From: Verrucomicrobiota bacterium
GTDB taxonomy: Bacteria > Verrucomicrobiota > Verrucomicrobiia > Palsa-1439
Direction: 5' to 3'
Assembly (NCBI GenBank): GCA_037127585.1
Contig: JBAXYB010000004.1
Location: 4,022 to 68,021 of the forward strand
Length of the DNA: 64,000 bases
Shown: positions 5,709-58,916 of the stretch, one piece after another
Layout of the letters: each line of letters opens with the position of its first letter
How positions within the stretch are numbered: the stretch's first letter is position 1
Program-made: the position numbers and the translations under genes
The notes under the pieces: model-generated
What the model was told of the DNA's origin: nothing
Databases searched by the model: none
Seen by the model: the letters and a program-made list of their open reading frames with translations, nothing else

Positions 5709-7037
5709 ATGCCGGCAGTGCCCAATCAGGTCCTGAGCGTCTCCGAACTGACCCGCCGCATCAAAGGTCTGCTCGAAGGCCAGTTCTCTTCACTCTGGGT
5801 CGAAGGCGAAATCTCCAACTTTGCCACCGCGCCGTCGGGTCACTGTTACTTCACGCTCAAGGACGCCAACGCCCAACTCTCCGCCGTCATGTTTCGCGGC
5901 GTCGCCGGCAAGCTGAACTTCAACGTCGCCGATGGCCAACAAGTCCTCGCCCGCGGCGAGATCAGCGTTTACGAACGCCGCGGCCAATATCAAATCATCG
6001 TCACGCAACTCCAGCCGAAGGGCCTCGGCGCGTTGCAGCTCGCGTTCGAGCAACTCAAACAGAAACTTGCCGCCGAAGGTTTGTTCGATCCCGCCCGCAA
6101 GAAACCCTTACCGGTTTTGCCGCAACGCATCGGCGTGGTCACCTCGCCGACCGGCGCGGCCATCCGGGATTTCCTCAACATCCTCAACCGCAGGTACCCG
6201 AACCGGCATGTCATCATCAACCCGGTCCGAGTCCAAGGCGACGGCGCGGCTCAGGAAATCGCTGCCGCCATCGACCAGTTCAACGCGCTCGACCTCGTTG
6301 ATGTCATCGTCATCACGCGCGGCGGCGGGTCGCTCGAAGATTTGTGGGCGTTCAACGAGGAAGTTGTCGCGCGCGCCATTGCCCGGTCGCGCCTCCCGAC
6401 GATCTCGGCGGTCGGCCACGAAATTGATTTCACCATTGCCGACTTCGTAGCCGACCTCCGCGCGCCGACGCCCAGCGCCGCCGCCGAGTTGGTCGTCCGC
6501 GCGAAGGAGGAGTTCATCGCCGAGCTCCGGCAACTGCAACAACGGCTCGATAAAGATTTGCGTTGGCGCGTCAGCGAAGCGCGGCGCCGGCTGGCCGATT
6601 GCGTCCTGCGACAGCCGGGCGAACTGGTCCGGCAGTACCAACAGCGCGTCGATGATCTCGATCACCGCTTGGAGCACGCCACCGGTAACATTCTCGGAAC
6701 GCAACGCCACCGGCTCAAGACCGCGACCGGCACGTTGAAGTTGCTCACGCCGCAGACCTTTGTCCGGCAACTCCGCCACCGCGTCGACGCCCACGAGCAG
6801 CGGCTGACGACGGAGTTGGCGCGGCACCGGCAAGCGATCCGGCATCGCCTCGGCTCGTTGACCGGCAAGTTGGAGTTGCTCAGCCCCAAGTCCACCCTCG
6901 CCCGTGGCTACAGCATCACCCGCACAGCGGACGGCAAGATCGTGAAAACCGTGAGAACCGTGAAACCGGGACTGCCGGTCCGGACGCTGGTGACCGATGG
7001 CGAGTTTGATTCGGTCGTTTCACGTCGGTCGGAGTAG
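5709..7037 (+). CDS. xseA: exodeoxyribonuclease VII large subunit
   Basis: The N-terminal OB fold (LSVSELTRRIKGLLEGQFSSLWVEGEISNF) and the protein length of about 440 aa match XseA. Confidence 0.85.
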   Translation: MPAVPNQVLSVSELTRRIKGLLEGQFSSLWVEGEISNFATAPSGHCYFTLKDANAQLSAVMFRGVAGKLNFNVADGQQVLARGEISVYERRGQYQIIVTQLQPKGLGALQLAFEQLKQKLAAEGLFDPARKKPLPVLPQRIGVVTSPTGAAIRDFLNILNRRYPNRHVIINPVRVQGDGAAQEIAAAIDQFNALDLVDVIVITRGGGSLEDLWAFNEEVVARAIARSRLPTISAVGHEIDFTIADFVADLRAPTPSAAAELVVRAKEEFIAELRQLQQRLDKDLRWRVSEARRRLADCVLRQPGELVRQYQQRVDDLDHRLEHATGNILGTQRHRLKTATGTLKLLTPQTFVRQLRHRVDAHEQRLTTELARHRQAIRHRLGSLTGKLELLSPKSTLARGYSITRTADGKIVKTVRTVKPGLPVRTLVTDGEFDSVVSRRSE

Positions 7038-7077
7038 CCGCGAGCGCCAGCGAGTGGATTCCGTGGCTCGCAGCTAC
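7034..7077. repeat. REP-like hairpin (GTAGCCGCGAGC...GCTCGCAGCTAC) overlapping the xseA stop codon
   Basis: A 12-nt stem with a 20-nt loop whose 5' GTAG coincides with the xseA TAG stop. The motif is related to the copies at 22051 and 53416. Confidence 0.5.
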
Positions 7078-7150
7078 AGCGCGATTTGCGAAATAGCTCT
7101 GCCGGGAGAGGGTTTTGCGCTAGAGTGCCCGGCTCTGAAAGACTTACCCT

Positions 7151-8908
7151 ATGACACCTAAATTATTCTCTGAACTCGGCCTATCGGCTGAACTGCTGAA
7201 AGCCATCGATAAACTCGGGTTCGAGCAGGCGTCGCCCATTCAGGCGGCAGCGATACCGGTGTTGATGCAGGGGCACGATATCGTGGGGCAATCGCAGACG
7301 GGCTCCGGCAAGACGGCGGCGTTTGCGGTGCCGGCGATTGAGAAGATCGACGCGACGGTGCGCACGGTGCAGGTGCTGATTCTGTGTCCGACGCGGGAAC
7401 TGGCGGTGCAGGTGTCGGAAGAGGTCCACAAGCTGGCGGAGTTCAAGCGCGGCGTCCGTGCGTTGCCGGTGTATGGCGGACAGTCGTACGAGCGACAGTT
7501 TCAGGGATTGAAACAGGGCGTGCAGATCGTGATCGGGACGCCGGGGCGCGTGATGGATCATATGCGGCGCGGGACTCTCCGTCTGGATGCGCTGAAGATG
7601 GTGATTCTCGACGAAGCCGATGTGATGTTGGACATGGGGTTTCGTGATGACATCGAGATTATTCTCAAGGGCACACCGGCGGAACGACAGACTGTTTTCT
7701 TTTCGGCGACGATGCCGCCGGCGATTCAGCAGTTGATCAAGAAGTACGCGCGCACGCCGCAGAACGTCCGCATCGAGGAGAAGACGATGACGGTGTCGAC
7801 GGTCGAGCAGATCTATTACGAGATCGACCGGCGCTTCAAAGTGGAATTGCTGACGCGGCTCATCGACATTCACGATTTCAAACTCGGCATCATCTTCTGC
7901 AACACGAAACGGACGGTGGACGACCTCGTCACGCACTTGAACGCACAGGGCTATTCAGCGGAGGGCTTGCACGGCGACATGAATCAGGCGGTGCGCGACC
8001 GGGTGATGAACAAGTTCCGCAAGTCGGGGCTCGAATTTCTCGTGGCCACCGACATCGCCGCGCGCGGCATCGACGTGGACGACGTTCAGGTAGTGTTCAA
8101 CTACGACTTGCCGTACGACTCGGAAGATTATCTCCACCGGATCGGTCGAACCGGCCGCGCGGGTCGGAGCGGACAGGCGATCGCGTTCGTGTCAGGCCGG
8201 GAAGTCTATGCGATCCAGCACATCGAACGGTTCACCCGCACGCGGATGAAGCGCGGCAAACCGCCGACGATCGAGGAAGTGGACGAAGCGCGCGCGAATG
8301 TGTTCCTGAACAAACTGCGCGTCACGTTGCAGAGCGGTAAATTCATCCGGCAAGATCACTTTATCGAGCGGCTCTTGGAAGAAGGTTTTACCACGACCGA
8401 CATCGCCTCGGCCTTGCTGCATCATCTGGCCGGCGGCGAAACTCCCGCCACACCAGCTCCCGGCAAACCCAGCTTGAAAAAAGACCGCCGGGAGGGCGAG
8501 GCTCCCGCCGAGCCGCGGCCCGTTACTAAACTCGCGTCTGCTCCGGCAGCCATCGTCAAACCAACTCCGCCGGCCTCCAAGCCGGTTCATCACCCGGCCA
8601 TCCCTCGCCCGCCGGCCGCGAGACCCAGCGACCCGCGCCCCGGTCAGGCACCGCCCCACAGCCGGCGGACGCCCGCCCACCAAACCCGGCTCTTCCTTAG
8701 TGTCGGCGAAGAAATGGGCATGACCCCCGGCCATGTCGTCGGCGCCATTCTCGGCGAAACTGGCTTGAACCCGGACGCCATCGGCACAGTGGATATCCGG
8801 GCCCGGCATCTGTTTGTGGACGTCGCCACCGAACACGCCGCGCTGGTGGTCAAGAAGCTCAATCGCACCCGCATCAAAGGCCATCCGCTGAAAGCTAAAT
8901 TGGCGTGA
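7151..8908 (+). CDS. deaD: DEAD-box ATP-dependent RNA helicase (DeaD/CsdA-like with a C-terminal DbpA-type RNA-binding domain)
   Basis: The Q-motif region, Walker A (GSGKT), DEAD, SAT and HRIGRTGRAG motifs are all present, followed by a C-terminal extension. Confidence 0.85.
   Translation: MTPKLFSELGLSAELLKAIDKLGFEQASPIQAAAIPVLMQGHDIVGQSQTGSGKTAAFAVPAIEKIDATVRTVQVLILCPTRELAVQVSEEVHKLAEFKRGVRALPVYGGQSYERQFQGLKQGVQIVIGTPGRVMDHMRRGTLRLDALKMVILDEADVMLDMGFRDDIEIILKGTPAERQTVFFSATMPPAIQQLIKKYARTPQNVRIEEKTMTVSTVEQIYYEIDRRFKVELLTRLIDIHDFKLGIIFCNTKRTVDDLVTHLNAQGYSAEGLHGDMNQAVRDRVMNKFRKSGLEFLVATDIAARGIDVDDVQVVFNYDLPYDSEDYLHRIGRTGRAGRSGQAIAFVSGREVYAIQHIERFTRTRMKRGKPPTIEEVDEARANVFLNKLRVTLQSGKFIRQDHFIERLLEEGFTTTDIASALLHHLAGGETPATPAPGKPSLKKDRREGEAPAEPRPVTKLASAPAAIVKPTPPASKPVHHPAIPRPPAARPSDPRPGQAPPHSRRTPAHQTRLFLSVGEEMGMTPGHVVGAILGETGLNPDAIGTVDIRARHLFVDVATEHAALVVKKLNRTRIKGHPLKAKLA
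8488..8518. repeat. family-A palindrome half-site (CCGGGAGGGCGAGGCTCCCGCCGAGCCGCGG) in-frame inside deaD
   Basis: 30 of 31 nt are identical to the left arm of the intergenic palindrome at 38802. It is translated as REGEAPAEPR in the DeaD C-terminal linker. Confidence 0.6.
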
Positions 8909-11211: not shown

Positions 11212-11911
11212 TATCGCCCTCTTCGACCGCGGCCTAACCGACAGCCGCGAGAAGGCCAAACGCCTGATCCTGGCCGGGGCCGTTCGCATCAACGGCCAGG
11301 TTGCCGGCAAACCCAGCGACATGGTTGCCGACGACGCCGTTCTCACCGTCGCCGCCGCCGAGAAATACGTCAGCCGTGGCGGCCACAAACTCGAAGCCGC
11401 ACTCGACGCATTCCATATCGATTGCGACGGCAAGACCTGCGCGGATCTGGGCGCCTCGACCGGCGGTTTTACCGACTGCCTCCTCCAACGCGGGGCCGCC
11501 GTCATCCATGCCGTGGACGTTGGCAAAGGCCAACTCGCCTGGAAACTCCGGCAAGACAAACGTGTCCTGATCCACGACGAAGTGAACGCGCGAAGTTATA
11601 CCGGCGAACTAGTCGATATCGTCACCATCGACGTCTCGTTCATCTCCCTCACCAAAGTCCTACCGGCGGCGGCGCAACTGCTCCGACCGGGCGGTCACCT
11701 CGTCGCGCTCATCAAACCACAATTCGAAGCCGGCCGCCGTGATGTCGGCAAAGGCGGCGTCGTGCGCGACCCGGTCGTTCACGAACGCGTGCAATCCGAG
11801 GTGAAAGAATTCGGCCTCGGCCTCGGTCTGCGGTTGCTTGGCATCGTCGAATCGCCTATTCTTGGGCCGGCAGGAAACAAAGAATTCCTCATCGGCTTTC
11901 AGAAACCGTGA
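11195..11911 (+). CDS. tlyA: TlyA-family rRNA 2'-O-methyltransferase (hemolysin A)
   Basis: An S4-like N-terminus (RLDIALFDRGLTDSREKAKRLILAGAVRING) is followed by an FtsJ-type methyltransferase motif (DLGASTGGFTD). Confidence 0.8.
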   Translation: MRARLDIALFDRGLTDSREKAKRLILAGAVRINGQVAGKPSDMVADDAVLTVAAAEKYVSRGGHKLEAALDAFHIDCDGKTCADLGASTGGFTDCLLQRGAAVIHAVDVGKGQLAWKLRQDKRVLIHDEVNARSYTGELVDIVTIDVSFISLTKVLPAAAQLLRPGGHLVALIKPQFEAGRRDVGKGGVVRDPVVHERVQSEVKEFGLGLGLRLLGIVESPILGPAGNKEFLIGFQKP

Positions 11912-13237: not shown

Positions 13238-13337
13238 TGCCGGCGGCGCGCATCTGTGAATGTGGGAGCGGCCTCAGCGCCGCGGGTCGGGCCGAACACG
13301 GCGCTGAGCGCCGTGGCTACATCGGAATCCGCGATTG

Positions 13338-13404
13338 GTAGGGACGCCGCGCCGCGGCGTCCGCGATCATCAATATCTCGGCGCTCGTGGCGCGAGCGCC
13401 CTAC
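13338..13404. repeat. REPIN-like inverted doublet (GTAG + GC-rich hairpin) in the ptsN-cimA spacer
   Basis: The left arm GTAGGGACGCCGCGCCGCGGCGTCC pairs with a right arm that ends ...GCGCCCTAC. Confidence 0.45.
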
Positions 13405-16976: not shown

Positions 16977-17039
16977 GTGGGAGCGGCGTCCCCGCCGCGA
17001 CCGGGTCGGCAAAAATCGCGGCGGGGACGCCGCTCCCAC
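16977..17039. repeat. REPIN: two identical 24-nt units (GTGGGAGCGGCGTCCCCGCCGCGA) in inverted orientation with a 15-nt spacer
   Basis: The doublet is a perfect inverted repeat at 16977-17000 and 17016-17039, lying in the divergent region between the hpn-like gene and metH. Confidence 0.6.
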
Positions 17040-21041: not shown

Positions 21042-21066
21042 GTAGGGACGGCTCGCCGAGCCGTCC
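21042..21066. repeat. single REP unit (GTAGGGACGGCTCGCCGAGCCGTCC)
   Basis: GTAG is followed by a perfect 10-nt hairpin, about 55 bp upstream of the TA operon. Confidence 0.5.
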
Positions 21067-22028: not shown

Positions 22029-22139
22029 GTGTCCTAATCTGGACCGACGTTGTAGCCGAAGCGTGAGCTTCGGGCGTCAGCATGCGAATCCCGAAGCTCA
22101 CGCTTCGGCTACAGGAAAGGCTGGGAGAAATTAGGACAC
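22029..22139. repeat. nested REPIN: two identical units (TGTAGCCGAAGCGTGAGCTTCGGG) inverted, inside an outer GTGTCCTAAT/ATTAGGACAC inverted repeat
   Basis: The inner arms lie at 22051-22074 and 22090-22113, and the outer arms at 22029-22038 and 22130-22139. Confidence 0.6.
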
Positions 22140-32217: not shown

Positions 32218-32367
32218 ATTGAGACAGCGATTGGAGAAGGCGGCAGTTTGTAGGGCGCGATGCCCCGTGTCGTTTCGGAGTATCGCGCCGCGAGGAGAGT
32301 CCAGCAATGATCACGGCGCGATACCTAAACGACAGGCATCGCGCCCTACAATTAGCGCGCTTGCCGC

Positions 32368-38879: not shown

Positions 38880-39011
38880 GGCTCTAAGCCGTCGCCACGA
38901 TGCGTTCCATCGCAGCTTCTTGCTGCTCGATGGATTCAACAAGCCGAAACTGGGTCCGCGCCCGGTCGAGGTTGTGCCCGTCCCGATGCGTCTTGAAATA
39001 CGTGTCACCGT

Positions 39012-49616: not shown

Positions 49617-49844
49617 ATGATCGGCCGCAGTAAAGACGCCGGGGTACCGCTGCTGAGTCGGAAAGTCTCCCGCGTCCAATGCCTGATCGCCCTCCAACGC
49701 GATGGCTCGTACATTCTGGTGGATCTTCATTCAACCAACGGCACGCGCGTGAATGACCGGTTGCTTCTGGGAAAAGAGGCCGTGCTCCAAGTGTACGACC
49801 GGATCGCCATCGGCGACGCGCAGTTTATCTTCAAAATGCTCTAA
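49617..49844 (+). CDS. FHA-domain protein (short; start uncertain)
   Basis: RSKDAGVPLLSRKVSRVQCLIALQRDGSYILVDLHSTNGTRVNDR matches FHA core motifs (G-R...S-x-x-H...N-G-T). The ORF stays open upstream to 49532 but offers only CTG or ATT as candidate starts there. Confidence 0.5.
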   Translation: MIGRSKDAGVPLLSRKVSRVQCLIALQRDGSYILVDLHSTNGTRVNDRLLLGKEAVLQVYDRIAIGDAQFIFKML

Positions 49845-49869
49845 ACCAATGCCGGTATCGGAAACCGGC

Positions 49870-50346
49870 TTACGCCTTAAAGATTGCGGCGGTGAATCCG
49901 AGAATCACGCCCGCGACGTTGTGACTGTTTAATTTGGCGAAATTGATCCGCAGCGTTTCATCGGCCAGATACTCCGTGTGTTCCGTGACGACGCGCACGG
50001 TGCGGCCATCTTTTGAAACCAAGAAGGCCAGCTTTGGCGCCAGCAGTCCGGCAACGCTCGTCGCGCCTGCTTTTGGCAGCACCGTCAGTTCGAGGCTGGC
50101 GCAGTACTCGGTGGGATTCTCGTCGGCGGCCTGGTCTTCAACGATCTGGACGCGACAGCGATCGGCTAAGACCGCTTTCACTTCCTCACACGCTGGGCGG
50201 ACGATTTCCCGCAGCAGTTCCCGGTGTTTGTTCCGCTGCTGTTGGGCCTGATCCGTATGGCGATCCGCTTCAGCCCGACCTTTGGCCCGCGCCTGGTCAT
50301 ACGATGCCAATTGGGCGTGAAGTTGCGTGACAATATTGGTCCTCAT
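49870..50346 (-). CDS. hypothetical protein
   Basis: A 158-aa ORF with a coiled-coil-like N-terminus and no recognisable motif. Confidence 0.4.
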   Translation of the reverse strand: MRTNIVTQLHAQLASYDQARAKGRAEADRHTDQAQQQRNKHRELLREIVRPACEEVKAVLADRCRVQIVEDQAADENPTEYCASLELTVLPKAGATSVAGLLAPKLAFLVSKDGRTVRVVTEHTEYLADETLRINFAKLNSHNVAGVILGFTAAIFKA

Positions 50347-50381
50347 GGCACTTACCTACAAACTAGCTGCCACCATGCCAA

Positions 50382-51404
50382 CTAGCCGGCCAGCGTTCGC
50401 CCCATGACTTCGACCAACGGCCGAATCGCAGCCATTAATTGCGCGAATTGCTCGGGCTTGAGTTGCTGGCCGCCGTCACTCAGCGCGGTGGCCGGATCGG
50501 GATGAACTTCAACCAACAAACCGTCAGCACCAACCGCCACCGCCGCCCGCGCCAACGGGATGATCATGTCGGCGCGACCGGCCGCATGACTCGGATCGAC
50601 GAAGACCGGCAAGTGCGTCTCCTTCTTCGCCACGGCGACCGCCGACAAGTCGAGCGTGTTCCGGCACGCAGTCTCGAACGTGCGGATGCCGCGTTCACAG
50701 AGAATGACCTGATTGTTGCCATGCACGCAGATGTACTCGGCGGCCAACAGCCATTCGTCCACCAGACCGGAAACACCCCGCTTCAACAGAATCGGCTTAC
50801 CGGCGGCGGCGGCGGCGGCGAGGAGGGGAATATTTTGGGCGTTGCGCGCGCCAATCTGGAGCACGTCGGCATAGCTCGCCACCAATTCGACATCTAGCGG
50901 ACTCATCACTTCGGTCACGATGGGCAAGCCGGTCACAGCTCGCGCTTCTTTCAACATCTCCAGCGCCGGTTGGCCGAGTCCCTGGAAGTCATACGGTGAG
51001 GTGCGCGGCTTGAATGCGCCACCGCGGAAGAGCGTCGCGCCGGAGGCCTTGACGGTTTTGGCGGTCGCGATGGTTTGGTCCGCTGTTTCGACGGAACACG
51101 GGCCGGCCACAACGTGAAATGCTTTGCCACCGAGTTTGAGTCCCGCCACATCAATAACCGTGTCGTGGGCCTGGTATTGCCGGCTGACGAGCTTGTATTT
51201 CTTTTGCACCCGCGTGACGGATTCGACTTGCGGGTAAACGATGAGCGATTCGAGGGTGTGATGGTTGCGTTCGTCGCCGACGCAGGCGACGATGGTGCGT
51301 TCGACGCCGCGAATCAGTCTCGGCTCGTACTCGAATTTCTTAACGGCATCACAGACTTGCTGGATTTCGGTTTCGTTGCTGCCAATTTTGAGGACGATAA
51401 TCAC
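50382..51404 (-). CDS. 3-deoxy-7-phosphoheptulonate (DAHP) synthase, type I-beta with an N-terminal regulatory domain
   Basis: A KDSA/AroG-like TIM barrel follows a roughly 80-aa ferredoxin-like N-terminal extension. Motifs include GPCSVE, GARN (GARNAQN) and the C-terminal metal-site residues. Confidence 0.75.
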
Positions 51405-51440
51405 ACAGAGGATGTAGCAACCGGTCGGAGGAAAGTCAAA

Positions 51441-52784
51441 CTAGCCGGCGGCGACCGCGCCGAAATAGCCGTCCCAGGCGATGTCGACGATTTCTTTGCT
51501 CAGGCGAAGTTTCTCGCGGTTATAGCGGCAGACTTCCATGGCGCGGTCGATGAGGTCGCGGGGTTCGCAGGCTTTTGGCTCGCGGTTTTCTTTGCCGTAC
51601 CGGATTTCGAGGTGCGCCAGGATTGTCGGGTCAACAGTTAGCCCATGCCGGCGCGCGTACCGGATGAAGATATCGGCGTACGTCTGCGGACTCGGCGCCA
51701 TGACGTGGATCCGGTAGCCCATGCGCCGCAGGAACGCTTCGTCGGCAAGATCGGAGACCGTCAGATTGGTGGCGAACACGATGACTTGCTCGAAGGGCAC
51801 TTGGAATTTTTTGCCGTTGTTAAGCGTCAGATAGTCGATCCGACTTTCGAGCGGAATGATCCACCGATTGAGCAACGCTTCCGGCGAGCAGCGTTGCCGG
51901 CCGAGATCGTCCACGACCAAGACGCCGCCGTTGGATTTCAACTGGAACGGCGCTTCGTAGTACCGGTGCGCGGGTGAGTTCGCGAGATCCATGCTCTCGA
52001 TGGTGAGTTCGCCACCGACGACGACGAGGGGCGGCTTGATCTTGACCCACCGGCGGTCGTAATCGGTTTCCTCTATCTTGCAGGCTTCGTGGGTGTGCGG
52101 GTCGAACAACCGAATGACTTGACCGTCGACTTCGATGGCGTAGGGAATCCAAATGTTGCCGTCGATCGCATCGACGAGAGCGCGGGCGATGGCGGTCTTG
52201 CCGTTACCGGATGGACCGCTCAGAAACAGACTGCGACCGGAGCTGGCGACCAAGCCCAGCACTTGTTTGACGCCATCGTTGAGAACGAGTTCGCCCATCG
52301 CGTTGTCGAGATCGCTGCGCGCGGAAGGCGGGCGGGCTTGCACTTGCTTGGAGAGCCGGTCGGAGTACGCATCCAGCGAGACCGGCGCGGGGCCGACGTA
52401 GCTATTCGAAGCGGAGACGCGCGCGTATTCAGTCCACCCGCGTTCGAGCATCGCGTACCGGTGATTGTGGGAACCGACCACGCCTTTAATCTCGACGAAT
52501 TTGTCGCGCGTGAGTTTTTGCAACACCGCGTCGGTAATCATCAAGCCGAGATGCAAACGCGTGGCCACATCGGAAGCCGTTGAATTCGGGTCAACCGCCA
52601 TCGCCTTCAACACTAGTTCGCCCAGAAACCCGGACGAAATGCCAAGCTCCTCGATCGTCATCGGCATCGGCGGCTTGAACGAGTGTCCGTCGTCCACCAG
52701 CAACGACGTCGTCGCCGCCGATTTAAGATGCGGCGTGAAGCTGACGACCTTTTTGGTGTTATCGGTATTGGCTAGGGCGATCAT
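51441..52784 (-). CDS. AAA+ family ATPase of unknown function
   Basis: Walker A in the middle of the protein (LSGPSGNGKTAIARAL) and Walker-B-like VLVVDDLGRQ are present. I cannot place it in a subfamily. Confidence 0.5.
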   Translation of the reverse strand: MIALANTDNTKKVVSFTPHLKSAATTSLLVDDGHSFKPPMPMTIEELGISSGFLGELVLKAMAVDPNSTASDVATRLHLGLMITDAVLQKLTRDKFVEIKGVVGSHNHRYAMLERGWTEYARVSASNSYVGPAPVSLDAYSDRLSKQVQARPPSARSDLDNAMGELVLNDGVKQVLGLVASSGRSLFLSGPSGNGKTAIARALVDAIDGNIWIPYAIEVDGQVIRLFDPHTHEACKIEETDYDRRWVKIKPPLVVVGGELTIESMDLANSPAHRYYEAPFQLKSNGGVLVVDDLGRQRCSPEALLNRWIIPLESRIDYLTLNNGKKFQVPFEQVIVFATNLTVSDLADEAFLRRMGYRIHVMAPSPQTYADIFIRYARRHGLTVDPTILAHLEIRYGKENREPKACEPRDLIDRAMEVCRYNREKLRLSKEIVDIAWDGYFGAVAAG

Positions 52785-52872
52785 TGTTTAATAATCCGAT
52801 TCAAAAATAGCGGCTTCCATGCCAGTCGGCTAATCCTTGCAACGCTGCCGGCTTTTTCCTAAAGTGCCCGGC

Positions 52873-53397
52873 ATGACAACGCGCTTATTGACAAGGGTTT
52901 TGGTGATTTCCACCCTGCTCGCCTGCCTCCCGGCGGCGCCGGCAGCCGATCAAACCATCAATCAAAACTTGGGAGTCATGGACGAGAAAGTCAATCGACT
53001 CAACGCCCAGATGGAAGACTTGCTGGTCCGCTACCAGGCAATGCAAAAGGACATGGACTTGATTCGTGGCGAACTCCAAGAATTTCGCCGCGCCGGCGGT
53101 GGCGTCTCGCAAGCCGACCTGAAAGCACTTGACGACCGCATCCAAGCCGTCGACACCGCCCGGAAAAATGACCGGCAAGCCATCATCGATCAACTCGCCA
53201 AAGAACTCGCCGGCGCCGGTAAGCCCGCCGGCAAGACACCGCCAGCGGCTGACGGGAAAGAGCATGTCGTACTAAAAGGCGAATACCTCGCCACGATTGC
53301 GCGCAAGTATGGCGTGTCAGTCGCCGACTTGAAGAAGGCGAATAATCTGACCGGCGACGACATCAAGGTCGGGCAGAAGTTGACGATCCCGAAGTAA
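52873..53397 (+). CDS. secreted LysM-domain protein with a coiled-coil region
   Basis: A signal peptide, a coiled coil, and a C-terminal LysM (HVVLKGEYLATIARKYGVSVADLKKANNLTGDDIKVGQKLTIP) are present. Confidence 0.65.
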   Translation: MTTRLLTRVLVISTLLACLPAAPAADQTINQNLGVMDEKVNRLNAQMEDLLVRYQAMQKDMDLIRGELQEFRRAGGGVSQADLKALDDRIQAVDTARKNDRQAIIDQLAKELAGAGKPAGKTPPAADGKEHVVLKGEYLATIARKYGVSVADLKKANNLTGDDIKVGQKLTIPK

Positions 53398-53415
53398 TCG
53401 CAACAGGATCGCCAT

Positions 53416-53490
53416 TGTAGCCGCGAGCCTGCTCGCGGCCCCACGGAATGCGCCAGTCCACAGTGAACCGCGAGCAGGCTCGCGGCTACA
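53416..53490. repeat. REPIN: two identical units (TGTAGCCGCGAGCCTGCTCGCGG) in inverted orientation, between convergent genes
   Basis: The arms are perfect 23-nt sequences at 53416-53438 and 53468-53490. Each arm is itself a small hairpin (CCGCGAGC..GCTCGCGG). Confidence 0.65.
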
Positions 53491-53513
53491 AAACCGAATT
53501 TCAAAACGCGCTC

Positions 53514-56500
53514 TCAGGCTTTTTCGGGCCGGTTGCTGTCCCAGACGATCGCCTTCTGCGGGGCGCTCTTCCGTTGCGAATCACCGCCCCCGCCCCACTG
53601 TCGCTGCCCAGCCGGCTTGGCGGTCATCTTCTCGGTATCCACCTTCAACCACACCGTTTCCTCGCCCGCCAACGTTTCGAGCGCGTCCACCAGTTCGGCC
53701 GACGGCGTCACCGCGAATTGATCGTGCGGTTCGAGAAACAAGAGTTGGCCATCCGGGTACATGAAGCAAAACATCACCGGCACGCCGCCGGTATGGGCGT
53801 TCAACAGATCCCGAATCTGCAGCAACGTAGCCTCGTTGGCCGCCGTGGTTGAAAGCCGGATGTGCATGGCCTTGGTGAACCGCTTGGGGACGTCGGTCAA
53901 TGGGATAACTTGATCCGCAAATATTTTCGGTTTGTCCTCGCGCAGATTCACCACGCCGGTAACAAAGACGGGCGCGTCCGCTTTCAAATGGATCGCACAC
54001 TTCGCATACGCCTCCGGGAAGACGAGCACCTCCACCGCGCCATCGAGATCTTCGAGCGTCAGGATCGCCATCGGCTTGCCTTGCTTGGTCAACCGCGGCT
54101 GGAGTTTACTCACAAGACCGCCGATGCGCGTGGCTTGGCCGTCCTGCAATTGAAGCAACTGCGTCGTCGACGCGAGTTCGTACCGGCGCAGAATCTCCGC
54201 GTACTGACTCAACGGATGGCCGGTCACGTAGAACCCGAGCAATTCTTTTTCGAAGCCCAACATCTCACTCTGCGTCCACTCCACCGCTGGCGGCTGACCG
54301 GCGGTTTGCTTGCGGGCATTGACCGGCGCGACGTCAAAGAGCGCGGCCTGCCCGCGATCCTTGTCGCGCTGGACAGTGGCGGCGCGATTGATTTGGTAAT
54401 CGATCTCGGCGAACACCTGGGCGCGCGCCGGGTTGATGGCGTCGAATGCGCCGCATTTGATGAGACACTCGATGACCTTGCGATTGACGACATGCATGTC
54501 GATCCGGTCACAGTAATTGGCAAGCGAGGTGAACGGCCCGCCCTTCCCGCGCACATCGATGATGTTCTGCACGGCGATCTCGCCCACGTTTTTAATCGCG
54601 GCCATGCCGAAACGGATTGCCTTAGTAGCGCGGGCGTCCCGCCCGTCTCCCCCAGCCGACGACACGGGCGGGACGCCCGCGCTACTGGTTACGGTGAACC
54701 GCACGCCGCTCTCATTCACATCCGGCGGCAAGACTTCGATCTTCATGTGCCGGCATTCGTTGATGAAGAGCTGAATCTTCTCCGTGTTCGCCAGTTCGTT
54801 CGATAACGACGCCGCCATGAACTCGACCGGGTAGTTCGCCTTCAAGTACGCCGTCTGATACGCGACCACGGCGTAGGCGGCACTATGCGATTTGTTAAAT
54901 CCGTAACCGGCAAACTTCGCCAGCGTATCGAAAATTCCTTCGGCTTTGGCTTTCGGGATTTTATGCGTGTCCGCGCAGCCTTTGATGAACGTGGCGCGCT
55001 GCTTCTCCATCTCCTCCAGCTTTTTCTTCCCCATCGCGCGCCGCAAAATATCCGCGCCCCCGAGCGTGTACCCGGCCAGCGCGTTCGCCGCCTGCATGAC
55101 CTGCTCCTGGTACACAAAAATGCCATACGTCTCTTTGAGAATCGTCTCCAGCGCCGGGTGGTCGTAGACAACTTTCACCTTGCCATGTTTGCGAGCAATG
55201 TAGTCGTCGATGAACTGCATCGGCCCCGGCCGGTAGAGCGCGATGAGCGCGTTGATGACCTCAATCGAATCAATCCCAATGCGCCGGCACAAGTCGCGCA
55301 TCCCGCCGGATTCCAATTGAAACACGCCGATGGTGTTCGCCTTCATCAGCAGGTCGAACGTCTTTTGATCGTTGAGCGGAATCTTCTCCATGTCAACGCG
55401 CGTCCCGGTGGTCTGCTCAATCAGATCGAGGCAATCCTTGATCACCGTCAACGTCTTCAACCCGAGGAAATCCATCTTCAACACGCCGAGATCGCCGAGC
55501 GGATTCATCGAGTACTGCGTGACGATGTCAGTCTCATTCGTGCCGGTCGTCAGCGGCACGATATTCGTCAACGGCTCCGCGCCGATGACCACGCCGGCCG
55601 CGTGCGTGGATGCGTTGCGCGCGATGCCTTCGAGCGCCTTGCCGTTGTCGATGATGCGCCGGACGATGTCCTCCGTATTGTAGGCCGTCTTGAGCTCGGG
55701 GTTCATCTCCAACGCCTTCTCCAGCGTCATACCGAGATCCGGCGGAATCATCTTTGCGATCCGGTCACACTCGGTATAACCCAGCCCCAGCACACGCCCC
55801 ACATCCCGCACCACCATCTTCGCGCCGAGCGTACCGAACGTGATGATCTGCGCGACGTGATCCGACCCGTACTTCTGCCGGACATACTCAATGACTTCCG
55901 GTCGGCGGTTGTAACAAAAGTCCATGTCGATATCCGGCGGCGACACGCGTTCGGGATTGAGAAACCGCTCAAAGAACAACCCATACCGGAGCGGGTCGAT
56001 ATCCGTGATCTTCAACGCATACGCCACCAGACTACCGGCCGCACTGCCGCGCCCCGGCCCCACCGGGATGCCATGCGTCCGCGCGAAATTCACAAAATCC
56101 CAGACGATCAAGAAATAGCTCGTGAACCCCTGCTTCGCGATGACATCCAGCTCGCGTTCGACCCGCGCGTGGATTTCGTTCGACGGCGAGCTGCCATACC
56201 GCTCGCGCACCCCGGCTTCGGTGAGTTGCCGGAGATACTGGTTCCGCTCGACACCAACCGGCGGGTGATAGACCGGAAAACGCAGCTTGCCGAACTCGAA
56301 TTTGAAACTGCATTTCTCCGCGACTTCGAGCGTGTTCGTGACCGCCTCCGGCACCTCGGCGAACAGCGTGTGCATTTCCTCCGGCGACCGCAGGAAAAAC
56401 TGCTCCGGCGCATACCGCATCCGCTTCTCGTCGCTGACCAACGCCTGCGTCTGCAAACAGATCAAACAATCGTGCGCTTCCCAATCACCGCGTTTGACAT

Positions 56501-57134
56501 AATGCACGTCGTTCGTGGCGACGGTCGCCAACTTGAATTCCTTCGCCCACTTGAGCAACTGCCGGTTGGCGACTTGCTGTTCCGGTATGCCGTGGTTTTG
56601 CAGTTCGATGTAAAAATCCCCCGGCGCAAAAATCTGCCGGTAATCATCCAGCGCCGCTTTCGCCTGTTCAACCTGCTCGTTGATGATCTTGTTCGGCACC
56701 TCGCCCTTGAGACACGAAGTGAAGCCGATCAACCCTTTCGAGTGTTGCGCGAGAATTTCCTTATCGATGCGCGGCTTGTAGTAGAAGCCTTCGAGATGCG
56801 CCATCGTGACCAGCTTGATGAGATTCTTGTACCCGGTCTCATCCTTCGCCAGCAGCACCAAATGATACGCCGCATCTCGAGCACTCCCGGCCTTCTTCTC
56901 CAACCGCGACCCCGGCGCGATATACGTCTCGCACCCGATGATTGGTTTCAGTCCCTTCGCTGATGCGGCCTGATAGAACTCGACCGCCCCGAACATCCCG
57001 CCATGATCCGTCATCGCAATTGCCGGCATCCCGTACTCGTGGGCTTTGGCGATCACATCGTCCACACGGCACGCCCCGTCGAGCATGCTGTACTCGGTGT
57101 GCAAATGCAGATGGACAAAGTCGGAGTGTTTCAT
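53514..57134 (-). CDS. dnaE: DNA polymerase III alpha subunit
   Basis: The N-terminal PHP domain (FVHLHLHTEYSMLDGA), the polymerase core, HhH and OB domains are present in a 1206-aa protein. Confidence 0.9.
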   Translation of the reverse strand: MKHSDFVHLHLHTEYSMLDGACRVDDVIAKAHEYGMPAIAMTDHGGMFGAVEFYQAASAKGLKPIIGCETYIAPGSRLEKKAGSARDAAYHLVLLAKDETGYKNLIKLVTMAHLEGFYYKPRIDKEILAQHSKGLIGFTSCLKGEVPNKIINEQVEQAKAALDDYRQIFAPGDFYIELQNHGIPEQQVANRQLLKWAKEFKLATVATNDVHYVKRGDWEAHDCLICLQTQALVSDEKRMRYAPEQFFLRSPEEMHTLFAEVPEAVTNTLEVAEKCSFKFEFGKLRFPVYHPPVGVERNQYLRQLTEAGVRERYGSSPSNEIHARVERELDVIAKQGFTSYFLIVWDFVNFARTHGIPVGPGRGSAAGSLVAYALKITDIDPLRYGLFFERFLNPERVSPPDIDMDFCYNRRPEVIEYVRQKYGSDHVAQIITFGTLGAKMVVRDVGRVLGLGYTECDRIAKMIPPDLGMTLEKALEMNPELKTAYNTEDIVRRIIDNGKALEGIARNASTHAAGVVIGAEPLTNIVPLTTGTNETDIVTQYSMNPLGDLGVLKMDFLGLKTLTVIKDCLDLIEQTTGTRVDMEKIPLNDQKTFDLLMKANTIGVFQLESGGMRDLCRRIGIDSIEVINALIALYRPGPMQFIDDYIARKHGKVKVVYDHPALETILKETYGIFVYQEQVMQAANALAGYTLGGADILRRAMGKKKLEEMEKQRATFIKGCADTHKIPKAKAEGIFDTLAKFAGYGFNKSHSAAYAVVAYQTAYLKANYPVEFMAASLSNELANTEKIQLFINECRHMKIEVLPPDVNESGVRFTVTSSAGVPPVSSAGGDGRDARATKAIRFGMAAIKNVGEIAVQNIIDVRGKGGPFTSLANYCDRIDMHVVNRKVIECLIKCGAFDAINPARAQVFAEIDYQINRAATVQRDKDRGQAALFDVAPVNARKQTAGQPPAVEWTQSEMLGFEKELLGFYVTGHPLSQYAEILRRYELASTTQLLQLQDGQATRIGGLVSKLQPRLTKQGKPMAILTLEDLDGAVEVLVFPEAYAKCAIHLKADAPVFVTGVVNLREDKPKIFADQVIPLTDVPKRFTKAMHIRLSTTAANEATLLQIRDLLNAHTGGVPVMFCFMYPDGQLLFLEPHDQFAVTPSAELVDALETLAGEETVWLKVDTEKMTAKPAGQRQWGGGGDSQRKSAPQKAIVWDSNRPEKA
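54625..54685. repeat. REPIN (two identical GTAGCGCGGGCGTCCCGCCCG units inverted, 19-nt spacer) embedded in-frame within dnaE
   Basis: The doublet is a perfect inverted repeat, translated as approximately SSAGVPPVSSAGGDGRDARATK between the conserved PPDVNESGVRF and AIRFGMAAIKNVGE segments of DnaE. Confidence 0.65.
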
Positions 57135-57152
57135 GAACTCGTGCCGGTGACT

Positions 57153-57407
57153 CTACCGCAAGATGAGAAAGATGAACAACCCCAACATCGCCGCCGCCAC
57201 CACCCAAATCCAAACTTGCCGGCTCGATGGCTTGCCGACACCTTCCCGGCGTTTCCAGTCTTCGTAATCAAAATCGGCCGGATCTTCCTCGTGAATGGTA
57301 TCGTCCGCCCACCCGGTCTTCTCGTCTGCACCGCAAGCCGGGCAGGCTTTAGCCCCCGCCGGCACGTCTTCTCCACAGTTCGGGCAACTGAACTCCTCGT
57401 CAGGCAT
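57153..57407 (-). CDS. zinc-ribbon small membrane protein
   Basis: MPDEEFSCPNCGEDVPAGAKACPACGAD has two CxxC pairs, followed by an acidic linker and a C-terminal transmembrane helix. Confidence 0.5.
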   Translation of the reverse strand: MPDEEFSCPNCGEDVPAGAKACPACGADEKTGWADDTIHEEDPADFDYEDWKRREGVGKPSSRQVWIWVVAAAMLGLFIFLILR

Positions 57408-58833
57408 GGCCGAACAACTCATCCACGCGTTTCTTCACCGCGCCATCCATCTTAATGATCGGCGGCCAGGGGCGTGTCTCCGCCTCGCCCGGCCACTTGT
57501 GCGTCGCATCAAAACCCAGCTTACTCCCCAGCCCCATTGTCGGCGTCGAGTGATCAAGCACATCGGCGGGGCCTTTGGTGAAAATGATGTCGCGCTGTGG
57601 GTCGACGTTCGCGGTCAGCCGGAACATCACCTCACTCAGGTTGTGGACATTCACATCTTCGTCCACGACCACGATCATCTTCGTGAACATCATCTGCCCC
57701 ATGCCCCACAACCCGTGCATCACCTTCATCGCATGATACGGAAACTGTTTCTTGATCGAGACCACCACCAGATTGTGGAACGCCCCCTCCGCCGGCAACG
57801 CGAGGTCCACGATCTCGTTGAACGTCATCTTAAACACCGGCAGAAAGATCCGGACGCTCGCCGTCCCCATGTAGAAATCTTCCATCGGCGGAATGCCGAC
57901 GATGGTGCTCGGATAAATCGCATCCTTCTTCGCCGTGATGCGTTCGATATGAAACTTCGGATAAGGCTCCGGCAACGTGTAATACCCGGTGTGATCACCG
58001 AACGGCCCTTCGAGATCGAGTTTCTCCTCGGGATCGACGTAGCCTTCCAACACAAAATCGCAATCCGCCGGCACTTCGAGATCGTTCGTCTGACACTTCA
58101 CCATCGCGACTGATTTCTTCCGGAGAAAACCGGCCAGCATCATCTCATCAATCCCATCCGGCATCGGGGCTGTCGCCGCAAACGTGTAAACCGGGTCGCC
58201 CCCCAGCGCGACAGTGACCGGCATCCGTTTCTTCAACTCCACATACCGGCGCCAATGCCGCGCCCCGGTCTTGTGCAGTTGCCAATGCATGAACGTGGTC
58301 CGCTCATCGATGACTTGCATCCGGTACGTCCCGACGTTGCGCGCCCCGGTATCCGGATCCCGCGTGATGACCAACGGCAGCGTGATGAACCGCCCCGCAT
58401 CCTGCGGCCAACATTTCTGAATCGGTATTTCGCTGAGACCGCGTAACTCCGTGGTCGGAGCGGCGTCCCCGCCGCGACCGGGTTTGGCATGCCGAAGTTT
58501 CAAGGCCGTCCCCAACAACGCCACCGTCTCCTTGAACGAGGTCGGCGGCTTGGCCTTCAAGAGCGATTCGAGTTCGCCGGCAATCTCCTCGACCGAGTCC
58601 ACCCCAAGCGCCATCGCCATCCGCTTTGTCGACCCGTAGCCATTGATCAACAGCGGAAACTTCGCGCCCTTGCACTTCTCAAACAACAACGCCTTCCCGC
58701 CGCCCGGTAACTTCATTTCCCGGTCCGCAATCTCCGTGATTTCAAAGACGGGATCGACTTCGATGGTGATCCGCTTCAACTCACCGGTGGCGTCGAGCTT
58801 TGAGACAAAATCGCGCAAGGAATCGTAGGCCAT
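57400..58833 (-). CDS. UbiD-family (prenylated-FMN-dependent) decarboxylase
   Basis: The N-terminus MAYDSLRDFVSKLDATGELKRI and a protein of about 480 aa match the UbiD fold. Confidence 0.8.
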   Translation of the reverse strand: MAYDSLRDFVSKLDATGELKRITIEVDPVFEITEIADREMKLPGGGKALLFEKCKGAKFPLLINGYGSTKRMAMALGVDSVEEIAGELESLLKAKPPTSFKETVALLGTALKLRHAKPGRGGDAAPTTELRGLSEIPIQKCWPQDAGRFITLPLVITRDPDTGARNVGTYRMQVIDERTTFMHWQLHKTGARHWRRYVELKKRMPVTVALGGDPVYTFAATAPMPDGIDEMMLAGFLRKKSVAMVKCQTNDLEVPADCDFVLEGYVDPEEKLDLEGPFGDHTGYYTLPEPYPKFHIERITAKKDAIYPSTIVGIPPMEDFYMGTASVRIFLPVFKMTFNEIVDLALPAEGAFHNLVVVSIKKQFPYHAMKVMHGLWGMGQMMFTKMIVVVDEDVNVHNLSEVMFRLTANVDPQRDIIFTKGPADVLDHSTPTMGLGSKLGFDATHKWPGEAETRPWPPIIKMDGAVKKRVDELFGHA

Positions 58834-58859
58834 GCGTCGACTGATACCAAAAAGCCGGC

Positions 58860-58916
58860 GTAGGAGCGACATTCTTGTCGCGATCGTCCTGGTCGCGGCA
58901 GGAATGCCGCTCCTAC
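58860..58916. repeat. REPIN with two slightly diverged units (GTAGGAGCGACATTCTTGTCGC / GTAGGAGCGGCATTCCTGCCGC)
   Basis: The inverted doublet lies between the queC stop and the ubiD start. The differences between arms are compensatory and keep each hairpin intact. Confidence 0.55.

What the first reader, a model, noticed from the sequence alone, without database searches (positions are those of the whole stretch)
7034..58916. GTAG/GTGG-prefixed REP and REPIN family scattered through the window
At least eight loci carry a GT(A/G)G tetranucleotide followed by a GC-rich short hairpin. Most form inverted doublets with spacers of 15-30 nt. The loci are 7034-7077, 13338-13404, 16977-17039, 21042-21066, 22051-22113 (nested inside a larger inverted repeat), 53416-53490, 54625-54685 and 58860-58916. 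Unit sequences differ between loci, but the two arms within a locus are identical or show compensatory changes, as expected for REPINs replicated as hairpins. Several copies abut stop codons: the xseA TAG is the GTAG of 7034, and 58916 ends 4 nt before the queC stop. Eight copies in 64 kb implies hundreds genome-wide and an active or recently active RAYT (IS200/IS605-like TnpA-REP) system.
Basis: partly seen in the sequence, partly recalled or inferred. Interest (0 to 1): 0.6.

Follow-up and report, generated by a model that had tools for sequence, protein, structure and literature searches.

The report
GTAG-tagged REP/REPIN repeats, one inside dnaE
The window, from an uncultured Verrucomicrobiota genome, is dotted with ordinary short palindromic "GTAG" repeats (REPs, mostly as inverted pairs) of a well-described mobile family, and one pair sits in frame inside the essential DNA polymerase gene dnaE.

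Summary
All eight loci carry GT(A/G)G followed by a GC-rich hairpin. Six are clear head-out inverted doublets, 21042 is a singlet, and 7034 is a decayed palindrome. I found two more loci (13262-13320, 32250-32349). A strict scan gives 17 units against 3.3±1.5 in shuffles.

They belong to the GTAG-tagged REP superfamily (Di Nocera 2013), which was already reported as abundant in the verrucomicrobium Opitutus terrae. The window's exact or near-exact units flank RAYT (HuH-Y1 transposase) genes in other genomes. They are absent from the same gene junctions in close relatives, and they lack terminator T-tracts. The source is a Verrucomicrobiota MAG whose other contigs I could not reach, so the genome-wide copy number and a resident RAYT remain untested.

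It encodes 21 residues at a β-hairpin tip. Of 83 verrucomicrobial DnaE homologues, 17 carry an insert at this turn. The eight insert-bearing genes read as DNA (window included) show at least three sequence types. The inserts are scattered on the tree (at least 13 gains or losses).

Verdict: a new member of a known kind. The recurrent dnaE site is the only mildly novel part.

The parts
7034..7077 (.). Weak or decayed REPIN-like palindrome. It has GTAGCCGCGAGC / GCTCGCAGCTAC arms (the head of the 53417 type) around a 20-nt non-palindromic core. Its GTAG supplies the xseA TAG stop. It lies between xseA and a DEAD-box helicase gene on the same strand.
   Evidence: (z -1.8)
13262..13320 (.). Additional head-out heterodimer: GTGGGAGCGGCCTCAGCGCCGCG ... 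(rc) GTAGCCACGGCGCTCAGCGCCGTG. It lies just after the PTS EIIA-like gene, whose stop is at 13237.
   Evidence: (z -2.9)
13338..13404 (.). Head-out heterodimer of two GTAGGG units: GTAGGGACGCCGCGCCGCGGCGTCC / (rc) GTAGGGCGCTCGCGCCACGAGCGCC. It lies upstream of a leuA-like gene (13460). The left unit is 1 nt from units that flank RAYT genes in L140, L141, L143 and L161.
   Evidence: (z -5.3)
16977..17039 (.). Perfect head-out REPIN of unit GTGGGAGCGGCGTCCCCGCCGCGA (type T3, like Pseudomonas GTAG-1). It lies between divergent genes: the SQS/PSY gene start at 16898 and the metH start at 17110.
   Evidence: (z -10.2)
21042..21066 (+). Single REP unit GTAGGGACGGCTCGCCGAGCCGTCC, downstream of metH. 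It is identical to RAYT-adjacent units in L158 and L179 and to a unit in a Verrucomicrobiia MAG (L110).
   Evidence: (z -4.0)
22051..22113 (.). Perfect head-out REPIN of unit GTAGCCGAAGCGTGAGCTTCGGG, between a ParE-like gene and an FKBP gene. It is nested in an outer 10-nt inverted repeat (22029-22038 / 22130-22139). The 22-nt core of the unit recurs exactly in verrucomicrobial locus L010 (23-nt unit: 1 mismatch).
   Evidence: (z -12.8)
32250..32349 (.). Additional 100-nt palindrome with GTAGGGCGCGATGCC heads and long-loop units. It lies between an ABC-transporter ATPase gene and a permease gene.
   Evidence: (z -10.3)
53416..53490 (.). Perfect head-out REPIN of unit GTAGCCGCGAGCCTGCTCGCGG, between the convergent 3' ends of the LysM gene (53397) and dnaE (53514). 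Four of seven relatives have only 3-7 nt at this junction. The other three (48-75 nt) lack this element; L008 and L010 carry different palindromes or hairpins.
   Evidence: (z -9.0)
54625..54685 (.). Head-out REPIN of unit GTAGCGCGGGCGTCCCGCCCG (type T4, which equals O. terrae GTAG-19). It lies in frame inside dnaE and encodes residues 817-837, TSSAGVPPVSSAGGDGRDARA.
   Evidence: (z -9.1)
58860..58916 (.). Head-out heterodimer GTAGGAGCGACATTCTTGTCGCGA / (rc) GTAGGAGCGGCATTCCTGCCGCGA. Each unit keeps its own stem through an A-T versus G-C swap. It lies between the QueC-like gene's stop (58920) and the start of the UbiD-family decarboxylase gene (58833), both on the minus strand.
   Evidence: (z -7.3)
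53514..57134 (-). dnaE (DNA polymerase III alpha), an intact 1206-aa ORF with all domains. It is the host of the intragenic REPIN.
   Evidence: (P0001 100% identical, annotated by NCBI)

Best explanation
The loci are members of the GTAG-tagged REP superfamily. These are short non-autonomous palindromic elements, here mostly arranged as head-out inverted doublets (REPINs, or HH dimers).

By analogy with studied systems, a REP-associated tyrosine transposase (RAYT, an HuH-Y1 enzyme of the IS200/IS605 lineage) recognises the single-stranded hairpin plus the unpaired GTAG. It cuts and rejoins ssDNA, so the doublet is copied or moved as one unit. That explains why the two arms of a locus match each other while different loci differ.

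Several sequence subfamilies coexist in this Verrucomicrobiota genome:
- a GTAGGG type
- a GTAGCCG type
- a GT(A/G)GGAGCG type
- GTAGCGCGGGCG, which equals O. terrae GTAG-19

Most copies landed in short spacers after genes. One landed in frame in a surface β-hairpin turn of DnaE and is tolerated as a 21-residue loop.

Shown here: the anatomy, the enrichment over chance, the gene context, the absence from orthologous sites, and the recurrence of the same units beside RAYT genes elsewhere.
Inferred: mobilisation by a RAYT in this genome, the copy number, and any secondary role such as mRNA 3'-end protection.
For: Anatomy and enrichment:
- 17 tagged hairpins against 3.3±1.5 in shuffles.
- Perfect or near-perfect 24-26 nt arms.
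- Folding z-scores down to -12.8.

Family identity:
- PMC3733652 defines GTAG REPs by a 5' GTAG/GTRG tag, 5-13 bp stems, predominant HH dimers, a TAG often serving as a stop codon, and abundance in O. terrae.
- The dnaE insert's peptides (..GVPPV....GRDARAT) match the GTAG-19 peptides in that paper's Additional file 3.

RAYT link:
- The exact 22-mer GTRGGAGCGGCGTCCCCGCCGC occurs in at least 119 genome stretches.
- It flanks RAYT ORFs in L029, L077, L080 and L031.
- 57 of 80 metagenomic RAYT loci have GT[AG]G hairpins within 350 nt. These include exact or 1-mismatch copies of the window's 21042 and 13338 units and a close relative of the dnaE unit in L203.
- A RAYT related to O. terrae Oter_2468 is flanked by GTAGGG REPs in L132.

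Insertion polymorphism:
- The dnaE|LysM junction is 3-7 nt in L002, L003, L005 and L007 but 116 nt with the REPIN here. The queC|ubiD REPIN is absent in L002 and L010.

Not an assembly artefact:
- A second assembly record (L001, ENA) matches the window over 15,882 nt with 1 mismatch.
Against: - No RAYT gene was found in the window or in about 0.34 Mb of related verrucomicrobial DNA.
- The source genome could not be counted.
- Each subfamily has only one or two loci in the window.
- 7034 and 13262 are degenerate. A decaying rather than active population is therefore possible.
- The taxonomy of the metagenomic RAYT loci that carry the exact units is unknown.
- No experiment bears on mobility or function.
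Confidence: 0.82

Rival explanations
1. Relic population. The elements are genuine GTAG REPs, but the genome no longer has a cognate RAYT. The copies are inherited vertically, slowly decay, and persist only where they are harmless or useful, for example as mRNA 3' hairpins.
For: - There are degenerate copies at 7034 and 13262.
- Many subfamilies are present with one or two copies each.
- No RAYT was found in any verrucomicrobial DNA held.
- PMC3733652 notes that REPtrons are missing in some REP-bearing strains.
- The dnaE insert is shared with relatives at 73-84% DnaE identity, so at least that copy is old.
Against: - Four doublets have 96-100% identical arms.
- The intergenic copies are absent at orthologous junctions of relatives with 84-87% DnaE identity. 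This points to recent insertion.
- The sampled DNA is only a small fraction of any genome, so missing a single-copy RAYT is expected.
Confidence: 0.15
2. The hairpins are host-encoded functional structures, such as Rho-independent terminators or regulatory and stabilising RNA hairpins. On this reading they are not mobile elements.
For: - Seven of ten loci lie between same-strand genes and one between convergent genes, often within a few nt of a stop codon.
- One unit (17018-17033, minus strand) is followed by TTTTT.
Against: - Nine of ten loci lack a T-tract.
- Terminator-like sites are no more frequent than in shuffles: 28 vs 23.6±5 and 17 vs 13.2±3.6.
- No Rfam family matches.
- One copy is inside a coding frame and one lies between divergent genes.
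- The same sequences occur beside transposase genes in unrelated phyla.
- They are absent at orthologous junctions in relatives.
Confidence: 0.03
3. The dnaE segment is an old lineage-specific loop of DnaE that merely resembles a REPIN. It is not an inserted element.
For: - Related inserts with the same junctions occur in DnaEs of 73-84% identity.
- In the related L002 locus the dnaE copy is the only GTAG element in 23.6 kb.
Against: - It has GTAG...CTAC ends and 25/26 complementary arms.
- Its unit recurs outside genes in L110 and, in a close variant, beside a RAYT in L203.
- The nearest homologues, P0002 and P0003 (87% identity), and 66 of 83 homologues in all, have a plain 4-residue turn.
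- Other homologues carry different GTAG REPIN types at the same turn.
Confidence: 0.04

Closest known systems
GTAG-tagged REP superfamily (Di Nocera, De Gregorio & Rocco 2013, BMC Genomics 14:522; PMC3733652), especially Opitutus terrae GTAG-19 and the Pseudomonas-type GTAG-1
   Same: - Unpaired 5' GTAG/GTGG tag, 6-9 bp GC stems and 2-5 nt loops.
- HH dimers predominate, and heterodimers occur.
- The TAG of the tag is used as a stop codon.
- Location is mostly after genes.
- Several families coexist in one genome.
- Intragenic copies occur in replication and repair genes of a verrucomicrobium.
- The dnaE insert encodes the GTAG-19 peptide signatures GVPPV and GRDARAT.
   Different: - The host is a different, uncultured Verrucomicrobiota lineage.
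- The subfamily sequences are partly new.
- The paper lists dnaE2, uvrA, ligase and helicases in O. terrae, but not replicative dnaE. It does not report repeated use of one loop across many species.
REPIN-RAYT systems of Pseudomonas fluorescens and E. coli (Bertels & Rainey 2011, PMC3116915; Nunvar 2010, PMC2817692; Messing 2012, PMC3479197)
   Same: - Two inverted REPs form one long hairpin.
- The arms of a doublet match each other.
- The GTAG tetranucleotide is needed for RAYT recognition.
- The window's 16977 unit flanks RAYT genes that end ...NPLRAGLV..YPHWDAVWL, like the Pseudomonas RAYTs.
   Different: - No resident RAYT or within-genome sequence population could be examined here.
- There are more subfamilies per kilobase than in the textbook cases.
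- The phylum is outside Proteobacteria.
SMAG elements of Stenotrophomonas maltophilia (GTAG families 6-9 in PMC3733652)
   Same: GTAG-headed 22-25 nt palindromes, several subfamilies, and singles and dimers.
   Different: Different stem sequences and a different host. SMAGs number in the thousands per genome, whereas the copy number here is unknown.
Rickettsia palindromic elements inserted in frame in genes (RPEs; cited in PMC3733652, which also lists a CGTC-4 REP in R. conorii dnaE, RC1211 residues 853-861)
   Same: A palindromic repeat sits in frame in an intact essential gene, adds a short peptide at a permissive site, and is absent from orthologues.
   Different: Those elements carry a CGTC tag and are not linked to a transposase. 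Whether the R. conorii site is the same DnaE loop was not tested.

Membership tests
GTAG REP superfamily | Unpaired GTAG (or GTRG) tetranucleotide at one end of the unit | tested here: met
   All units start with GTAG or GTGG. In unit folds the tag is left unpaired (21042).
GTAG REP superfamily | Short GC-rich stem-loop (stem 5-13 bp, loop 2-20 nt) | tested here: met
   Stems are 6-9 bp and loops 2-5 nt. The 32250 element has about 20-nt loops.
GTAG REP superfamily | Many copies per genome | not testable with these tools
   There are 10 loci, about 19 units, in 64 kb. The types recur in other verrucomicrobial MAGs.
GTAG REP superfamily | Mostly extragenic, preferentially between same-strand or convergent genes and close to 3' ends | tested here: met
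   Seven loci lie between same-strand genes, one between convergent genes, one between divergent genes, and one is intragenic.
GTAG REP superfamily | Association of the unit type with RAYT genes (REPtron) | tested here: met
   The association is met in other genomes. The 16977 unit is exact beside RAYTs in L029, L031, L077 and L080. The 21042 unit is exact in L158 and L179. The 13338 unit is 1 mismatch away in L140, L141, L143 and L161. It could not be tested in the source genome.
REPIN (Bertels & Rainey) | Two REPs in inverted orientation with a short spacer, able to form one long hairpin | tested here: met
   There are eight doublets. Unit-to-unit spacers are about 9-29 nt in the six short-loop doublets. 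The whole-element folds range from -21 to -41 kcal/mol as ssDNA.
REPIN (Bertels & Rainey) | Doublets over-represented relative to singlets; a within-genome sequence population around a master sequence | tested here: inconclusive
   The window has 8 doublets and 1 singlet, which is too small a sample. No genome-wide population was available.
REPIN (Bertels & Rainey) | A (usually single-copy) RAYT in the same genome flanked by the same REPs | not testable with these tools
   No RAYT lies in the window or in the related DNA held. The other contigs of the MAG could not be reached.
Rho-independent terminator | GC hairpin followed directly by a T/U run | tested here: not met
   Only 1 of 10 loci overlaps a terminator-like site. 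Such sites are not enriched over shuffles.
In-frame intragenic palindromic insertion (intragenic REP / RPE-like) | The host ORF stays intact, the segment is absent from close orthologues, and the site is structurally permissive | tested here: met
   - The 1206-aa dnaE has all domains.
- The segment aligns to a gap in Thermus DnaE.
- It is absent in P0002 and P0003 (87% identity) and in 66 of 83 homologues.
- The AF2 model of the fragment shows pLDDT below 50 only for the inserted residues, between two retained strands.

The most novel reading that the evidence does not exclude
One β-hairpin turn of the replicative polymerase DnaE (RFTV-x | K-A-IRFG) may be a preferred landing site for GTAG REPINs across Verrucomicrobiota.

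The supporting observations are:
- 17 of 83 homologues carry 10-32 extra residues at this turn.
- In the eight insert-bearing genes read as DNA (window included), the inserts are GTAG/GTGG REPINs, or their decayed remains, of at least three sequence types.
- The T4 inserts of the window, L002 and L005, and the L008 and L009 types, share the right junction C(T/C)AC-N-(A/C)A(A/G)-GCN-ATC.
- The inserts are scattered on the DnaE tree, with at least 13 state changes.
- The two arms co-vary between orthologous inserts (GTAG/CTAC to GTGG/CCAC; CG/CG to AA/TT).

This pattern goes beyond passive tolerance of insertions. It would point to one of three things: target-site choice by the REPIN/RAYT machinery, replacement of a resident REPIN by other family members, or an adopted role for the loop on the polymerase.
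Probability: 0.25. Interest if true: 0.6.

Novelty: new member of a known kind. Interest (0 to 1): 0.38.

Why it matters
For the finding as given, little changes. It adds an uncultured Verrucomicrobiota lineage to the hosts of GTAG REPs. It also shows that identical REP units, down to a 22-mer, are shared with Proteobacteria, where they flank RAYT genes. This is useful for annotating such MAGs. Gene callers extend ORFs through these repeats, as happened here with the first-ATG ORFs for metH and the UbiD-family gene.

The dnaE copy is the more useful part. It gives a natural series of filled, empty, decayed and differently filled alleles of one site in an essential gene. From that series, REPIN insertion junctions, turnover and arm co-evolution can be read directly. 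It also flags a permissive loop in Pol III alpha.

Tried and rejected
- Exact-protein look-up of xseA found nothing. The dnaE product did give the source.
- A protein search with four proteobacterial RAYTs returned only RAYTs with proteobacterial names, or no names, in the top 120.
- The look-up of O. terrae Oter_2468's locus failed. Its relative P0259 was used instead.
- Local HMM and phmmer searches of all ORFs of at least 80 aa in the DNA held when they were run (window plus loci L001-L129, about 1.08 Mb) found RAYTs only in four proteobacterial loci.
- Terminator reading: rejected.
- Known RNA families and tRNAs: none in the window.
- Scan hits at 4999-5020 and 11513-11534 lie inside coding regions, have no partner, and fall within the chance expectation of about 3. 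I treat them as noise.
- I considered that the apparent in-ORF positions of the 16977 and 58860 copies were real. They are artefacts of taking the first start codon: metH starts at 17110 and the UbiD-family gene at 58833.
- I tried to derive the empty dnaE site of L003 from the filled allele by precise excision. It differs by one codon and by frame, so neither precise excision nor simple insertion is demonstrated.
Full report
**What is in the sequence.**
- The window is 59.6% G+C.
- At each of the eight coordinates given there is a GTAG or GTGG followed by a GC-rich hairpin.
- An inverted-repeat search ranks these loci at the top. Arm complementarity is 25/25 at 16977-17039, 24/24 at 22051-22113, 24/24 at 53416-53490, 25/26 at 54625-54685 and 21/24 at 58860-58916. 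13338-13404 is a pair of two different GTAGGG hairpins.
- A strict scan (GT[AG]G, 0-3 nt, a perfect 6-10 bp stem of at least 60% GC, a 2-6 nt loop) finds 17 units. Shuffled sequence gives 3.3±1.5, with a maximum of 7.
- Folded as single strands, nine of ten loci beat all 200 shuffles, with z-scores from -2.9 to -12.8.
- 7034-7077 does not (z -1.8). It keeps only the 12-nt heads GTAGC(C/T)GCGAGC and looks decayed.
One is a second doublet at 13262-13320, so the EIIA|leuA spacer holds four units. The other is a 100-nt palindrome with GTAGGG heads at 32250-32349.
- All doublets have the tags on the outside.

**Source and gene context.**
- The DnaE encoded at 53514-57134 (minus strand) is 100% identical to a protein that NCBI annotates in a 'MAG: Verrucomicrobiota bacterium' on a 69,795-bp contig.
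- A second assembly record (ENA ERZ4222710, locus L001) matches window 43514-59395 with one mismatch. The repeats are therefore not artefacts of a single assembly.
- Gene calls and family scans place seven loci between same-strand genes, one between convergent genes (LysM|dnaE), one between divergent genes (SQS/PSY | metH, which starts at 17110) and one inside a gene.
- The TAG stop of xseA (TIGR00237) is the TAG of the GTAG at 7034.
- The 58860 REPIN ends 3 nt from the stop of the QueC-like gene. It lies upstream of the UbiD-family gene, whose start is at 58833.
- Only one unit is followed by a T-run. Terminator-like sites are no more common than in shuffles.
- No Rfam family or tRNA is present.

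**What they are.**
The anatomy is that of the GTAG-tagged REP superfamily of Di Nocera et al. 2013 (PMC3733652). That paper describes:
- an unpaired GTAG/GTRG tag, stems of 5-13 bp, and HH dimers as the predominant form;
- heterodimers, and tags that supply TAG stop codons;
- several families per genome, and families shared by distant taxa;
- REPs inserted within other palindromes;
- Opitutus terrae (Verrucomicrobia) as 'highly enriched in GTAG repeats'.

I tested the link to RAYT transposases directly.
The hosts are Gamma-, Beta- and Deltaproteobacteria, a Nitrospiraceae MAG and at least 10 Verrucomicrobiota MAGs.
- Searching all ORFs of those stretches with E. coli RayT finds HuH-Y1 RAYT genes in L029, L077, L080 and L031. 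Each is flanked by, or adjacent to, this very unit.
- The O. terrae RAYT printed in the paper (Oter_2468) is protein P0241. It has 24 relatives.
- One relative (L132) is flanked by GTAGGG REPs in inverted orientation.
- A metagenome scan with an alignment of these RAYTs gave 80 loci. Of these, 57 have GT[AG]G hairpins within 350 nt.
- Among them are exact copies of the window's 21042 unit (L158, L179) and 1-mismatch copies of the 13338 unit (L140, L141, L143, L161). L203 carries GTGGCGCGGGCG..CGCCCGCG, a close relative of the dnaE unit.
- The 53417 unit (exact), the 21042 unit (exact) and the 54625 unit (1 mismatch) recur outside genes in one Verrucomicrobiia MAG (L110). The 22-nt core of the 22052 unit recurs exactly in L010 (1 mismatch over 23 nt).

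**Evidence of insertion.**
- At the convergent dnaE|LysM junction, relatives L002, L003, L005 and L007 have 3-7 nt. The window has 116 nt, of which 75 are the REPIN.
- L008 and L010 have different palindromes at that junction.
- The queC|ubiD REPIN is absent in L002 and L010.
- L002 comes from a MAG whose DnaE is 84% identical. It has no other GTAG element in 23.6 kb, although the same MAG has 16977-type copies elsewhere (L059, L122, L125).
- REP density therefore differs among related genomes, from 0.04 to 0.7 units per kb.
- Extrapolating the window's 0.3 units per kb to 'hundreds genome-wide' is plausible but unverified.

**The copy inside dnaE.**
- The 1206-aa ORF has the full Pol III alpha domain set. 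Pfam's HHH_6 match spans 109 residues for 89 model positions.
- Against Thermus aquaticus DnaE, a block of about 18-21 residues around 817-837 aligns to a gap, between ...FkV and ..IlFGL.
- In codons, the REPIN reads A-GTAGCGCGGGCGTCCCGCCCG-(spacer)-CGGGCGGGACGCCCGCGCTAC-T. This translates to TSSAGVPPVSSAGGDGRDARA.
- These peptides are the signatures listed for O. terrae GTAG-19 intragenic REPs: GTGVPPV and HGRDARAT.
- An AlphaFold model of residues 700-1000 keeps the two strands of the hairpin (fragment E115-118 and E139-142; neighbouring pLDDT 84-95). It gives pLDDT below 50 only for fragment residues 121-136, which lie within the insert. This fits a tolerated surface loop.

**Distribution of the dnaE insert.**
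- Of 83 verrucomicrobial DnaE homologues, 17 have 10-32 extra residues at exactly this turn. The other 66, including the two closest (P0002 and P0003, 87% identity), have a 4-residue turn.
- At the DNA level the inserts are GTAG/GTGG REPINs of different types.
  - The T4 type is found in the window, L002, L005 (right arm decayed) and L006.
  - GTAGCGCAAGCTTCCAGCTTGCG is found in L008, with decayed relatives in L007 and L010.
  - GTGGGACAGGCGTCTCGCCTGTC is found in L009.
- On a neighbour-joining tree built without the insert columns, the inserted alleles form 15 separate clades. Parsimony needs at least 13 changes from an uninserted root.
- Between the window and L002 the two arms differ by mirrored changes: GTAG/CTAC to GTGG/CCAC, and CG/CG to AA/TT.
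- This pattern fits three readings: separate insertions of symmetric REPIN variants, replacement of a resident copy, or correction within the hairpin. My data cannot separate them.
- The empty site of L003 cannot be derived from the filled allele by clean excision.

**How it most likely works.**
- Shown: tagged hairpin doublets that are far more frequent than chance, are polymorphic between relatives, and are identical in sequence to units that flank RAYT genes.
- Established elsewhere (PMC3479197, PMC3116915, PMC2817692): RAYTs bind the REP hairpin and the GTAG and cleave ssDNA, and REPINs behave as the replicating unit.
- Inferred here: a RAYT encoded elsewhere in this genome, or lost recently, mobilised these copies. 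Insertions survive where they are harmless, such as spacers after genes or an exposed loop of DnaE. Some may secondarily protect mRNA 3' ends.
- The main rival is a relic population without a resident RAYT. I give it 0.15.
- The terminator-only reading and the 'native loop' reading are poorly supported.

**Novelty.**
- The family, its presence in Verrucomicrobia, its intragenic copies and their bias toward replication and repair genes are all published (PMC3733652). That paper includes dnaE2 in O. terrae and dnaE in Rickettsia conorii.
- The finding is therefore a new member of a known kind.
- I did not find repeated use of one DnaE turn by several REPIN types across many uncultured Verrucomicrobiota described anywhere. 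That paper notes only that REPs in Xanthomonas recB lie at about the same site.
- This is the one part worth following up.

Noticed in passing
window 38804-38865, 45519-45579, 63335-63386, 8490-8514: A second palindromic repeat family without a GTAG tag: GGGAGGGCGAG(G/C)CTCCCG(G/C)CGAGCC. There are three inverted doublets and one single unit. Two doublets lie between convergent genes. The 38804 doublet is nested in an outer 23-nt inverted repeat (38764-38786 / 38869-38891), giving a 141-nt hairpin of -95.8 kcal/mol.
   Followed up: partly
window 8490-8514 (inside the DEAD-box helicase gene 7151-8908): The single unit of the second family is in frame in the linker between the DeaD dimerisation domain and the DbpA domain. 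It encodes REGEAPAEPRP. This is another intragenic palindromic repeat, here in an RNA helicase.
   Followed up: partly
window 45519-45579 (AddA-like helicase-nuclease, start 45602, minus strand): A doublet of the second family makes up most of a 27-residue N-terminal extension (MSPERESLGGRASRRAMPPAAQPELRPP). The nearest relative (L003, 92% identical in this stretch) lacks it. An internal ATG in the element's loop could be the true start.
   Followed up: partly
window 22029-22038 and 22130-22139: A perfect 10-nt inverted repeat, GTGTCCTAAT / ATTAGGACAC, brackets the 22051 REPIN upstream of the FKBP gene. It occurs nowhere else in the window. It may be a split operator-like site or part of a composite element.
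   Followed up: partly
loci L011-L129 (genome-contig scan): The exact 22-nt unit GTRGGAGCGGCGTCCCCGCCGC is shared by genomes of at least four phyla. For example, there are 19 stretches in one Thiohalocapsa MAG, and hits in Pseudoxanthomonas, Methyloversatilis, Desulfosarcina, Nitrospiraceae and at least 10 Verrucomicrobiota MAGs. This suggests either horizontal spread of a REP-RAYT pair or strong constraint on the REP sequence.
   Followed up: partly
L110 (JBEKFI010000039.1 8001-16000, Verrucomicrobiia MAG SPRUCE 226): There are 18 GTAG units of at least five types in 8 kb, packed into a few spacers. They include exact copies of the window's 53417 and 21042 units and a 1-mismatch copy of the dnaE unit outside genes.
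   Followed up: partly
L010 5119-5253 (GCA_037024555.1, upstream of queC): A BIME-like cluster: a GTAGGAGCGACCTCCCGGTCGC unit followed by three tandem copies of (rc) GTAGGAGCGGCGTCCCCGCCGC spaced 35 nt apart.
   Followed up: no
PMC3733652 Additional file 3 (R. conorii RC1211): Rickettsia conorii dnaE carries a CGTC-4 REP at residues 853-861 of 1181. Whether this is the same β-hairpin turn as in the verrucomicrobial DnaEs was not checked.
   Followed up: no
window 21487-21840: A ParE-toxin-like ORF lies between two of the REP loci (21042 and 22051), in the metH-FKBP spacer region. A partner antitoxin was not looked for.
   Followed up: no
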